Part shown: in pieces, positions 58,901-61,900 of the stretch
Layout of the letters: every line of letters begins with the position of its first letter
Numbering within the stretch: position 1 is the stretch's first letter
Assembly: GCF_000026545.1 (NCBI RefSeq)
Contig: NC_011601.1
Length of the DNA: 64,000 nucleotides
Reading direction: 5' to 3' (one strand)
Source: Escherichia coli O127:H6 str. E2348/69
Lineage (GTDB): Bacteria; Pseudomonadota; Gammaproteobacteria; Enterobacterales; Enterobacteriaceae
Made by a program: the position numbers

Positions 58901-61900
58901 CGAAATAAATACATCATTAATACATATGTTGTGATGATGTATTTTTATAAATTATTTCCCACATGAATTTTAATAAATTTAATCTATTCCTTTATACGCA
59001 ATACATTTACTTTCCTCTTTTGATGATCTTAAATGTCTTATTTTTCGTAATGTGTATAACAAGGAATAGTGATGAAATTTAAAAAATGTCTTCTGCCTGT
59101 GGCAATGTTAGCGTCATTCACTCTGGCAGGATGCCAGTCAAATGCTGATGATCATGCCGCCGATGTTTATCAAACCGATCAACTGAATACCAAACAAGAA
59201 ACTAAAACCGTTAATATTATTTCCATTCTTCCCGCAAAAGTTGCCGTAGACAACGCCCAAAATAAACGGAACGCACAAGCCTTCGGCGCGCTTATTGGCG
59301 CTGTCGCTGGCGGTGTTATCGGCCACAACGTCGGGTCTGGCAGCAATTCCGGAACGACAGCAGGTGCAGTTGGCGGCGGAGCTGTTGGCGCAGCAGCGGG
59401 TTCTATGGTGAATGATAAAACCTTAGTGGAAGGTGTTTCTTTAACATATAAGGAAGGCACCAAAGTGTATACCTCCACCCAGGTGGGTAAAGAGTGCCAG
59501 TTTACGACAGGTTTAGCCGTTGTTATTACCACGACGTATAACGAAACGCGTATTCAGCCAAATACCAAATGTCCTGAAAAGAGCTAATAATCAGGAGGAG
59601 TCATGAAGAAAGTTTTTCTTTGCGCCATCTTAGCCTCCTTAAGCTATCCGGCTATCGCCTCATCATTGCAGGATCAACTCTCGGCTGTCGCAGAAGCGGA
59701 ACAGCAAGGTAAAAATGAAGAGCAAAGGCAGCATGACGAATGGGTCGCGGAGCGCAACAGGGAAATCCAGCAAGAGAAGCAACGTCGCGCAAACGCCCAG
59801 GCCGCGGCTAATAAAAGAGCGGCAACGGCAGCAGCGAATAAGAAAGCTCGTCAGGATAAACTGGACGCCGAAGCCACTGCGGACAAAAAACGCGATCAAA
59901 GTTATGAAGATGAGCTACGCAGCTTAGAGATTCAGAAACAAAAACTGGCGCTGGCGAAAGAAGAAGCCCGCGTTAAGCGCGAAAACGAATTTATCGATCA
60001 GGAACTGAAGCACAAAGCTGCGCAAACCGATGTGGTGCAATCTGAAGCTGACGCAAACAGGAATATGACTGAAGGCGGTCGCGATCTGATGAAAAGCGTG
60101 GGCAAAGCAGAAGAGAATAAATCAGATAGCTGGTTTAACTAAACGATGTTAGTAACTTCAAGTCTATAATTCTTTAGGATAAAAAACCCTCTGTAGTAAC
60201 AGAGGGTTTTGTTCATTCATAGTGCAGGGTCAAATCATTCCCACTCAATTATTTACTAAACTCATAACTAATTGACTGAAAACAACTTTTAAAACAATGA
60301 AATTTTTCATACCGTTTTATATACCGTCACCGGAAATCAGTACCATGAAAAATGCCATGTCACCGGGTCAGCGAATCGTACTGCTTTTCACAGACTCGTC
60401 CGGCTTCTGCGGCCCGGTCAGCGTACTCTGCCAGCTGTCGGTTTCGCTCGAGAGATTTGCTGAGCACGTCGGCAAGCAAAACTCCGGTATCTGCGGCTGA
60501 CGCCCCAGTGCCGACAGTGGAGTTATACTGCCTGAGCTGCTCACGGATGGCAACGAGCTGTTGCTGCAACCTGCCAGCGCGAGCGGCAGCATCAAGAGCA
60601 TCATTGCGCGCCTTGTCGATCCTCTGCTGCGCTTCACGTTCATTGGTAGCTTTCTCCTGTTCATCGTGATTACGGGCTTTATCATCAGCCTGTTTCTGGT
60701 CTTCCTGCGCCTGCGCATACCCGGCATAGTACTGGCGGTCACCGTGGACATTCCAGGCAGCCACGCCGCTGATGACAAGAGCAGCAAGCATCGACACTAT
60801 AAGCAACTGTTTCCAGTACGCTTTGATGAATGCCCAGATCATAACAGTGCCTTACGGGCAGCGGCGTAACGTGCTCGCCGGTCGTCGATACCGTTCTGGC
60901 CACCGTTGATAATCTGCGTGACGCGCACCAGGTCTCCCGTGTACTTCATGCAGCCTTTACTGGCGAAAAACCACGCCGCGCTGCGGGCCGCGTATTCATC
61001 CTGCGACAGCAGTTCAGGCTGAGCGACCAGATCAACCTTCAGACCATTACCGCAATCCCGGTAGTTGTTCAGACCAGTGATCTGGATAAGTCCACGACCG
61101 CGATAATTCCATCCATCACCCGGGCCGTTGTTACCCATGCGCTTGCTGTACACCAGATTGGCGATCGCGCGCTGGCGCTCCAGAGGAAGAGACTTCTCAT
61201 ATGTTTTCCTGCCGAGTGCGTTGGCCTGGTCTGGAGTGATGCGCCCGGCACGGATAAACCCAGACAGCCCGTTAACGCTGTAGTTGAAGTTTTCCTGTAA
61301 CCTGGTAAATCCTCCGGACTCATGCCCGACCTGCGCGATAAACATCGCCTGGTCATCTGGCTTGGTAATGCCAAACTCATTCATAGCAGCAGTGATATGT
61401 TGGTACCAGCGTGCGGCCAGTTGCTCAGTGATACCGGCTGCACGCCGGAACTGGTTAATGTCCATGTTGAGACCTCGATATTTTGAATATCTGCACGACG
61501 TTACCGCGCGTCTTCAGGACGGCGGCAAGCATGACAGCATTGATGATGACCTCTGATAAATCAGCGGCCATTGGTGTGTGATACCAGATTGCATATGCGG
61601 CGCGGACGGGGATGCTGGCTGACGCCACGATAAGGAAGTAGGCTATCCACCCACCCCACCGGCGGTGTTGCGATCCATTACGCCGGAAGGTTCCGACGCG
61701 GATTGCTATCGCAGAACAGATAACCGCATTGGCGACGAGTAAAATCAGCTCATGAGTTGTCATCGTCTTTTCTCCCCGGGATTAAATCGCGTGGATTGTC
61801 GGAGCGGTGATAGAGCCAGATACCAATACGTACTGCGACGATTGCCGACACGAACGCGCCAGCAGAGAAGACGATCCCTTTCTCAAAAGAGTCCTGCGTG

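What the first reader, a model, noticed from the sequence alone, without database searches (positions are those of the whole stretch)
60143..60360. Sharp core/accessory junction marked by a bidirectional terminator
Conserved core sequence ends at the yfgI terminator (60181..60213) and the accessory lysis genes begin about 150 bp later, converging on it. The intervening stretch has no coding capacity and may contain the island boundary or attachment-site remnant, with a second copy expected at the far end of the island.
Basis: inference. Interest (0 to 1): 0.3.

Follow-up and report, generated by a model that had tools for sequence, protein, structure and literature searches.

The report
Prophage attachment site beside guaA terminator
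The stretch is the left attachment site (attL) of a 40-kb epsilon15-like prophage inserted at the 3' end of guaA in E. coli E2348/69, next to the native yfgI/guaA terminator; this integration site is already published, so the finding is correct but ordinary.

Summary
The window is E. coli O127:H6 E2348/69. The hairpin at 60181-60213 is real and reads as a two-way intrinsic terminator. It is the native terminator shared by the convergent genes yfgI and guaA in empty-site genomes.

The core/accessory boundary is not at the terminator. Host sequence runs 36 bp further, to 60249. The last 16 nt (60234-60249, ATCATTCCCACTCAAT) are the stop codon and last four codons of guaA plus one base. They recur 40,297 bp away, outside the window, beside a tyrosine integrase and the body of guaA.

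Joining the two prophage ends at this core gives a sequence found uninterrupted in free phage genomes: SPN1S 96%, epsilon15 92%, phiV10 84%. Empty-site E. coli genomes align only up to 60249. The core matches the published attP/attB core of phiV10, epsilon15 and vB_EcoP_ZX5.

Positions 60250-60359 are the phage P' arm, with a conserved integrase arm-type site and weak IHF-like sites.

One extra observation: the phage carries its own 25/27-identical copy of the host hairpin between the core and int. After integration this copy lies downstream of guaA, and the host hairpin lies downstream of the phage lysis operon.

The biology is already known and interest is low.

The parts
59603..60142 (+). 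yfgI (DUF5384), the last core gene before the junction
   Evidence: ORF; Pfam DUF5384, E = 4e-62; annotated yfgI in E2348/69 and K-12
60181..60213 (.). Native two-way intrinsic terminator shared by yfgI (+) and guaA (-) in empty-site genomes. In this lysogen it lies downstream of yfgI and of the phage lysis operon.
   Evidence: Hairpin of -19.3 / -17.8 kcal/mol on the two strands, with a U-run after the stem in both directions. Identical in K-12 and ST131 empty sites. Related hairpins follow yfgI in E. marmotae, Citrobacter and S. bongori.
60214..60233 (.). Host spacer between the terminator and the guaA stop codon (the guaA 3' UTR in empty sites)
   Evidence: 100% identical to K-12 and ST131 empty sites
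60234..60249 (.). att core of attL: ATCATTCCCACTCAAT. This is the reverse complement of guaA codons I-E-W-E plus the stop codon, plus one base. The published 17-nt core covers 60233-60249.
   Evidence: Exact 16-nt direct repeat with L001 43745-43760; shuffles reach at most 12 nt. Matches the core attgagtgggaatgatt reported for vB_EcoP_ZX5, phiV10 and epsilon15 (PMC9782041). Empty-site alignments listed end at 60249.
60250..60359 (.). Phage P' arm of attL: non-coding phage DNA between the core and the Rz-like stop codon
   Evidence: Absent from empty sites. Directly follows the core in free SPN1S, epsilon15 and phiV10 genomes. Homologues occur in 565 of 5426 complete E. coli genomes.
60243..60277 (.). 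Two IHF-consensus-like sites: 60243-60255 (+) and 60265-60277 (-)
   Evidence: Each matches WATCAANNNNTTR with one mismatch. Such matches are not enriched window-wide (56 found, 54 expected). Two within 110 nt has P of about 0.004. They coincide with sites annotated as IHF in the epsilon15 record. Weak evidence.
60309..60354 (+). Conserved block holding the integrase arm-type site ATACCGTCAC(C) at 60321-60331, a partial copy CATACCGT at 60308-60315, and ATGAAAAATG at 60345-60354
   Evidence: Nearly invariant among SPN1S, epsilon15, phiV10 and the window. ATACCGTCACC and ATGAAAAATG recur in the P arm at L001 43610-43620 and 43628-43637. ATACCGTCAC is annotated as an integrase binding site in epsilon15 AY150271.2.
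60360..60842 (-). Rz-like i-spanin (DUF2514), the last gene of the phage lysis cassette
   Evidence: Pfam DUF2514, E = 7e-43; annotated Rz-like in SPN1S, epsilon15 and phiV10
60368..60643 (-). Rz1-like o-spanin embedded out of frame in the Rz-like gene (lipobox LALAGC)
   Evidence: Lies within the out-of-frame 139-aa ORF 60368-60787. Its position corresponds to Rz1 as annotated in epsilon15 and phiV10. No Pfam hit.
60839..61465 (-). GH19 endolysin
   Evidence: Pfam Glyco_hydro_19; annotation
61455..62163 (-). Two holin genes (61455-61763 and 61750-62163)
   Evidence: Pfam Phage_holin_3_7 and Phage_holin_8

Best explanation
The region is the attL junction of a 40,297-bp epsilon15-like (genus Uetakevirus) prophage in E. 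coli E2348/69. A P4-type tyrosine integrase recombined the phage attP with a bacterial attB whose core is the last 15-17 nt of guaA.

The phage carries the same 16-17 nt, so guaA is rebuilt intact at the far junction (attR). An orphan copy of its last codons stays here at 60234-60249, between the native yfgI/guaA terminator and the phage P' arm. That arm carries an arm-type integrase site and probable IHF sites, as in lambda-type attP sites.

Shown here: the direct repeat, the exact breakpoint, the match to free phage attP sequences, and the identity of the integrase.

Inferred, not shown: the host hairpin now terminates both yfgI and the phage lysis operon that converges on it. The phage's own hairpin copy, which lies between the core and int, now terminates guaBA transcription and keeps it from reading into int, which is on the same strand.
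For: - Source: the window is 100% identical to E2348/69.
- Prophage layout: it runs from the lysis genes next to yfgI to a tyrosine integrase next to guaA.
- Empty site: in K-12, yfgI and guaA converge 92 bp apart around the same hairpin.
- Repeat: a 16-nt exact direct repeat lies at both ends; shuffles reach at most 12 nt.
- Clean insertion: the ST131 empty site equals window ...60249 joined to L001 43761....
- Breakpoint: the empty-site alignments listed stop at 60249.
- attP: the rebuilt attP is uninterrupted in SPN1S (96.4%), epsilon15 (92.0%) and phiV10 (84.3%) over 612 nt.
- Integrase: 96% identical to epsilon15 Int over 251 aa. It has Arm-DNA-binding, central and catalytic domains.
- Prior annotation: the epsilon15 record marks integrase sites, IHF sites and a terminator at the equivalent positions.
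- Literature: the same core at the guaA 3' end was confirmed by PCR and Sanger sequencing for vB_EcoP_ZX5 and is stated for phiV10 and epsilon15 (PMC9782041). The epsilon15 integrase cluster targets the guaA 3' flank (PMC8138268).
- Hairpins: both fold as terminators.
Against: - No experiment here shows that this prophage still excises.
- Termination at either hairpin is predicted from sequence only.
- The IHF-like sites are weak consensus matches.
- attR matches 16 of the 17 published core positions (ACATCATT... instead of AAATCATT...). SPN1S attP has the same variant, so this is a phage-lineage difference and not damage.
Confidence: 0.96

Rival explanations
1. The terminator hairpin itself is the attachment site, and the crossover happened inside it. 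It too is present at both ends of the prophage.
For: A 27-nt segment of the hairpin (60182-60208) recurs 25/27 identical at the distal end, L001 43673-43699 (family D14).
Against: - Host-identical sequence continues 36 bp past the hairpin, to 60249.
- Free phage genomes already contain their own hairpin copy, then 46 nt, then the core.
- The two copies keep different loops (AGTA in the host, AAAA in the phage) and different spacers to the core (21 and 46 nt). No exchange took place there.
- The published core is the guaA end.
Confidence: 0.02
2. The stretch is a decayed attachment-site remnant at the edge of a defective, immobile island.
For: A few pseudogene fragments are annotated in the early region of the prophage. 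Excision has not been tested.
Against: - Both att cores are intact.
- The integrase is full length and 96% identical to that of an active phage over the 251 aa compared.
- The P and P' arms are 96% identical to free phage SPN1S.
- The prophage size of 40.3 kb matches 38.7-39.7 kb for free relatives.
- The structural genes are collinear with SPN1S.
Confidence: 0.12
3. The junction is a generic recombination hotspot between core genes, filled by homologous recombination and not by site-specific integration.
For: The yfgI-guaA interval varies among Escherichia and related genera.
Against: A dedicated integrase sits at the distal end. The repeat is short and exact, the breakpoint is base-precise, and the attP is uninterrupted in virion-derived genomes.
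Confidence: 0.01

Closest known systems
attP/attB of Uetakevirus phages (epsilon15, phiV10, SPN1S, vB_EcoP_ZX5) at the 3' end of guaA
   Same: Same core sequence, same target gene end, same order (int, arm sites, hairpin, core, P' arm, Rz/Rz1), and 84-96% nucleotide identity across attP.
   Different: This copy is integrated in an EPEC O127:H6 chromosome. Its att/int/lysis region is closer to Salmonella phage SPN1S than to the E. coli phage phiV10. The core matches 16 of 17 positions at attR, as in SPN1S.
Lambda-type attP of heterobivalent tyrosine integrases (core plus arm-type sites plus IHF sites)
   Same: [quoted passage not shown] A 10-11 nt motif is repeated on both arms. IHF-like sites lie next to the core.
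   Different: The integrase belongs to the P4/SXT-like epsilon15 cluster (PMC8138268). attP lies upstream of int, so lambda's sib-type control from downstream of int cannot apply. The target is the end of a protein-coding gene.
Other guaA-targeting elements (the CMGI-3-type genomic islands named in PMC8138268)
   Same: The integrases are 45-60% identical and sit 200-350 nt downstream of the same guaA end in many Gamma- and Betaproteobacteria.
   Different: Those are non-phage islands with unrelated arm sequences and their own terminator-like hairpins.
Two-way intrinsic terminators between convergent genes
   Same: A GC-rich stem flanked by an A-run and a T-run, between convergent yfgI and guaA.
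   Different: Nothing unusual. Here the gene on one side has been replaced by a phage operon.

Membership tests
Uetakevirus (epsilon15-like) prophage attL at guaA | The core attgagtgggaatgatt, or a near-identical form, is present as a direct repeat at both prophage ends and overlaps the guaA stop codon | tested here: met
   17/17 at attL (60233-60249) and 16/17 at attR. The exact shared repeat is 16 nt. Core as published in PMC9782041.
Uetakevirus (epsilon15-like) prophage attL at guaA | Joining the two prophage ends at the core reproduces the attP of free phage genomes | tested here: met
   The 612-nt rebuilt attP aligns end to end with SPN1S (96.4%), epsilon15 (92.0%) and phiV10 (84.3%) (alignments).
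Uetakevirus (epsilon15-like) prophage attL at guaA | An epsilon15-cluster tyrosine integrase lies next to the other junction | tested here: met
   417-aa Int at L001 42300-43553, 96% identical to epsilon15 Int over 251 aa. Pfam Arm-DNA-bind_3, Phage_int_M and Phage_integrase.
Uetakevirus (epsilon15-like) prophage attL at guaA | Left flank plus right flank equals an uninterrupted empty site in related genomes | tested here: met
   ST131 and K-12 empty sites. The empty-site alignments listed end at 60249.
Uetakevirus (epsilon15-like) prophage attL at guaA | Virion and lysis genes of the genus are collinear with reference phages | tested here: met
   91.6% identity over 68% of the first 25 kb to SPN1S. 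The lysis cassette matches in Pfam.
Uetakevirus (epsilon15-like) prophage attL at guaA | The prophage can excise and re-integrate at this site | not testable with these tools
   Needs induction and junction PCR or sequencing.
Two-way intrinsic (rho-independent) terminator | A stable GC-rich hairpin followed by a U-run on both transcribed strands | tested here: met
   -19.3 and -17.8 kcal/mol, z below -4. Tails are UUUUGUU (+) and UUUUUUAU (-).
Two-way intrinsic (rho-independent) terminator | Transcripts actually end there in both directions | not testable with these tools
   Needs Term-seq or 3' RACE.
Lambda-type attP architecture | Arm-type integrase sites on both arms | tested here: met
   ATACCGTCACC at 60321-60331 and at L001 43610-43620, plus an inverted copy at about L001 43580. 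Conserved in four phages. Binding itself is not tested.
Lambda-type attP architecture | IHF binding sites flank the core | tested here: inconclusive
   Two one-mismatch consensus matches within 35 nt of the core. Window-wide counts are at chance level.

The most novel reading that the evidence does not exclude
The phage's hairpin copy may be a functional stand-in for the host terminator, so that integration swaps terminators.

Observations:
- The hairpin is 25/27 identical to the host yfgI/guaA terminator, with both 10-nt stem arms identical.
- It is conserved in epsilon15, SPN1S and phiV10, and a near-identical hairpin follows guaA in Citrobacter, Superficieibacter, Serratia and Enterobacter genomes.
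- It occupies the same position relative to the core as the host hairpin.

Proposed mechanism: in the free phage the copy ends the late (lysis) operon just before int. After integration it ends guaBA transcription and shields int from that strong host operon, while the host hairpin takes over termination of the lysis operon.

Origin: related hairpins follow yfgI in Escherichia, Citrobacter and S. bongori. This favours a host origin, by capture or by common descent of an attP/attB homology that once ran from the hairpin to the core.
Probability: 0.45. Interest if true: 0.3.

Novelty: already known. Interest (0 to 1): 0.1.

Why it matters
The check places the prophage boundary to the base (60249/60250) and identifies the element. 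It also shows that a reader working without tools correctly inferred an attachment site from gene layout alone.

Biologically this is a textbook case. A temperate phage targets the highly conserved last codons of an essential gene and carries a replacement copy, so the gene survives. In a capped scan (at least 120 matching stretches), the exact guaA end sequence was found in more than 100 species, spanning Gamma- and Betaproteobacteria, Clostridia-type MAGs and Deinococcus. Related integrases sat just downstream in 22 of 112 loci searched. This fits the published view of guaA as a general landing site for mobile elements.

The only point that may not be published is the near-identical terminator copy carried by the phage and the terminator exchange it implies. 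That is a modest regulatory detail.

Tried and rejected
1. Crossover inside the hairpin. Rejected: host sequence continues to 60249, and the two copies differ in loop and spacer.

2. The three synonymous guaA differences from K-12 right after the core might be phage-derived DNA, implying a longer core. Rejected: an empty-site ST131 genome has the same three bases, so they are a lineage polymorphism.

3. The E. coli hairpin might be a fossil of an old phage P arm. Rejected as the simpler reading: related hairpins follow yfgI in E. marmotae, Citrobacter portucalensis and S. bongori. E. albertii, however, does carry an arm remnant of a different guaA-targeting element.

4. Rfam scan of 59000-61000 at E <= 1: only three chance-level hits to eukaryotic families, no known RNA.

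5. The consensus promoter/terminator scan missed the host hairpin and found no promoter in either arm.

6. IHF consensus search: counts over the whole window are at chance level.

7. Papers not held in the library: Iguchi 2009 (E2348/69 genome) and Kropinski 2007 (epsilon15 genome). No held paper links E2348, prophage and guaA. I therefore could not cite the published name of this prophage.

8. One Salmonella enterica yfgI locus had other genes, not guaA, downstream, so it was uninformative.

Full report
**Source and layout**

The last 5 kb of the window are 100% identical to E. coli O127:H6 strain E2348/69. In the annotated record the order is pdeF, yfgG, yfgH, yfgI, then about 40 kb of phage genes. 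These begin with a DUF2514 Rz-like gene, a GH19 endolysin and two holins on the minus strand. They end with a tyrosine integrase immediately before guaA, guaB and xseA. Pfam scans confirm these assignments. In K-12, yfgI and guaA converge with only 92 bp between them. The 'island' is therefore an insertion between yfgI and guaA.

**Checking the observation**

The hairpin is real. Positions 60181-60213 read AAAAAACCCTCTGTAGTAACAGAGGGTTTTGTT. As RNA it folds at -19.3 kcal/mol on the plus strand and -17.8 on the minus strand (z = -4.2 and -4.6; 0 of 200 shuffles as stable). A U-run follows the stem in both directions. It is identical in K-12 and ST131 empty sites, where it sits between the convergent yfgI and guaA. 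It is thus their native shared terminator, not only the yfgI terminator.

No credible ORF lies in 60143-60359. Rfam finds nothing.

**Where the core genome ends**

The core genome does not end at the hairpin.
- The window is identical to K-12 from 60178 to 60249.
- In a search of 5,426 complete E. coli genomes, every empty-site alignment listed (a sample spread down the ranking) stops at query position 250, which is window 60249.
- The three-way alignment shows the break directly.

The junction is 60249/60250.

**The attachment site**

The last 15 host bases, TCATTCCCACTCAAT (60235-60249), are the reverse complement of the guaA codons I-E-W-E plus the stop codon. With one more base they form a 16-nt exact direct repeat with L001 43745-43760, at the integrase/guaA end and 40,297 bp away. 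That position would correspond to about window 100,531-100,546, beyond the window end. Shuffled controls gave a mean longest match of 8.1 nt and a maximum of 12.

The ST131 empty site equals the left flank up to 60249 joined to the right flank from L001 43761. The insertion is therefore clean. The three synonymous guaA differences from K-12 beside the core are a lineage polymorphism, not phage DNA.

**Independent confirmation from free phages**

I joined the integrase-side end to the lysis-side end at the core and searched phage genomes. The 612-nt construct aligns end to end with Salmonella phage SPN1S (96.4%), epsilon15 (92.0%) and Escherichia phage phiV10 (84.3%), among 21 records that cover at least 80% of it.

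All are Uetakevirus genomes with the order int, attP, Rz/Rz1, endolysin. The integrase is 96% identical to epsilon15 Int over the 251 residues compared. The structural region is 91.6% identical to SPN1S over 68% of 25 kb.

**Literature**

- For vB_EcoP_ZX5, the core attgagtgggaatgatt at the 3' end of guaA was verified by PCR and Sanger sequencing. The paper states that the same core serves phiV10 and epsilon15 (PMC9782041). The window carries this 17-mer at 60233-60249.

The phenomenon is therefore already known.

**Anatomy of the 110-bp phage arm (60250-60359)**

Alignment with three free phages shows a variable part next to the core and an almost invariant block at about 60309-60354.
- The block contains ATACCGTCACC (60321-60331). 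This motif recurs in the other arm at L001 43610-43620 and is annotated as an integrase binding site in the epsilon15 record.
- A partial copy (CATACCGT, 60308-60315) and a shared ATGAAAAATG are also present.
- Two one-mismatch IHF-consensus matches lie at 60243-60255 and 60265-60277, where epsilon15 has annotated IHF sites. Such matches are at chance frequency over the whole window, so this evidence is weak.
- The integrase has an arm-DNA-binding domain, which fits a lambda-type attP with core and arm sites.

**How it most likely works**

Shown: site-specific insertion at the guaA end, with the phage supplying the same 16-17 nt, so guaA is rebuilt at attR and an orphan copy remains at attL.

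Inferred:
- The lysis operon on the minus strand now runs through the P' arm and the core into the host hairpin, whose minus-strand U-run (UUUUUUAU) should stop it before it reads antisense into yfgI.
- guaA is now followed, after 46 nt, by a phage hairpin, AACCCTCTGTTTTTACAGAGGGTT plus UUUUUCUUUAU (-16 kcal/mol).
- int lies just beyond on the same strand. This hairpin would both terminate guaBA and keep host transcription out of int.

**The duplicated hairpin**

The phage hairpin is 25/27 identical to the host one, and both 10-nt stem arms are identical (family D14). It is conserved in SPN1S, epsilon15 and phiV10. A near-identical hairpin follows guaA in Citrobacter, Superficieibacter, Serratia and Enterobacter genomes; arm-site motifs (all but Serratia) and, in the first two, an 85-97% identical integrase mark these as related prophages.

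I tested whether the host copy could be a phage fossil. Related hairpins follow yfgI in E. marmotae, Citrobacter portucalensis and S. bongori, so the host hairpin looks ancestral. The phage copy is more likely captured host DNA, or the residue of a once longer attP/attB homology. The direction of transfer is not settled. I did not find this similarity mentioned in the papers I could read.

**Wider context**

These include Gamma- and Betaproteobacteria, Clostridia-type MAGs and Deinococcus.
- In 22 of 112 loci searched (89 of the loci had 1.5 kb or more of downstream sequence), a homologue of this integrase (44-97% identity) lies within 3 kb downstream, in most of them starting 200-350 nt after the stop codon.
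- Among complete E. coli genomes, 565 of 5,426 carry a homologue of the P' arm, and 362 cover at least 80% of 60000-60700. Only the three E2348/69 assemblies carry this exact variant.

**Verdict**

Its interpretation, an attachment site with a second copy at the far end, is correct. The feature is the known attL of an epsilon15-like prophage at guaA. Novelty: already known. Interest: low.

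Noticed in passing
L001 43673-43699 (record NZ_LT827011.1, about 2,811,672-2,811,698), compared with window 60182-60208: The phage carries a 25/27-identical copy of the host yfgI/guaA terminator hairpin between int and the att core. It is conserved in SPN1S, epsilon15 and phiV10, and a near-identical hairpin follows guaA in four other genera. After integration it becomes the hairpin downstream of guaA.
   Followed up: yes
window 62100-64000 (ORF 62351-63358 +; acyltransferase from about 63452, running off the window end): A low-GC block (30-40%, against about 55% in the lysis genes) holds a 335-aa protein with no Pfam hit and an acyltransferase, on the opposite strand to the lysis genes. It is probably an O-antigen-modification (serotype conversion) cargo module like those of related phages. 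This part is not covered by SPN1S.
   Followed up: partly
L006-L125 (genome-contig loci), e.g. L009, L011, L041, L044, L046, L061, L073: The exact guaA end is shared by more than 100 species. Many have, right after the stop codon, a recurrent unrelated arm sequence (TTTCGCGTCTGGCA...GCCCGCGTAACTGCGGGC plus a T-run). In some it is followed by integrases 45-60% identical to this one. guaA is a landing site for several element families.
   Followed up: partly
L011 (E. albertii NBRC 107761), about 190 nt between guaA and yfgI: E. albertii lacks the E. coli-type hairpin. It has about 95 nt of the arm and terminator of that other guaA-targeting element, with no integrase hit, followed by a long palindrome. 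This is apparently a scar of a lost island that now supplies the hairpin downstream of guaA.
   Followed up: partly
window 59603-60142 (yfgI): yfgI (DUF5384) has about 71% nucleotide-identical homologues in P1/P7-type phage-plasmids (upf50.0). The Escherichia phage TL-2011b record contains host yfgI and the terminator up to the same att core, so that deposited phage sequence includes host flank.
   Followed up: no
L001 10559-10582, 27806-27825, 31154-31173, 33581-33666, 35921-35970, 36694-36848 and 43597-43609 (all outside the window): A palindromic motif, TTACC-N5-GGTAA, is scattered through the prophage. Copies cluster on both sides of the HTH repressor gene, and one lies in the P arm between the two inverted arm-type sites. 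These may be operator or regulator sites.
   Followed up: no
L001 28271-28383 (outside the window): A pseudogenic tRNA-Gly is annotated inside the prophage, between the portal and terminase regions.
   Followed up: no
L133 (E. marmotae), L131 (Citrobacter portucalensis): These species end guaA with TAA instead of TGA. Their attB core therefore differs from the phage core at one position (TTATTCCC... against TCATTCCC...), which might affect integration efficiency.
   Followed up: no
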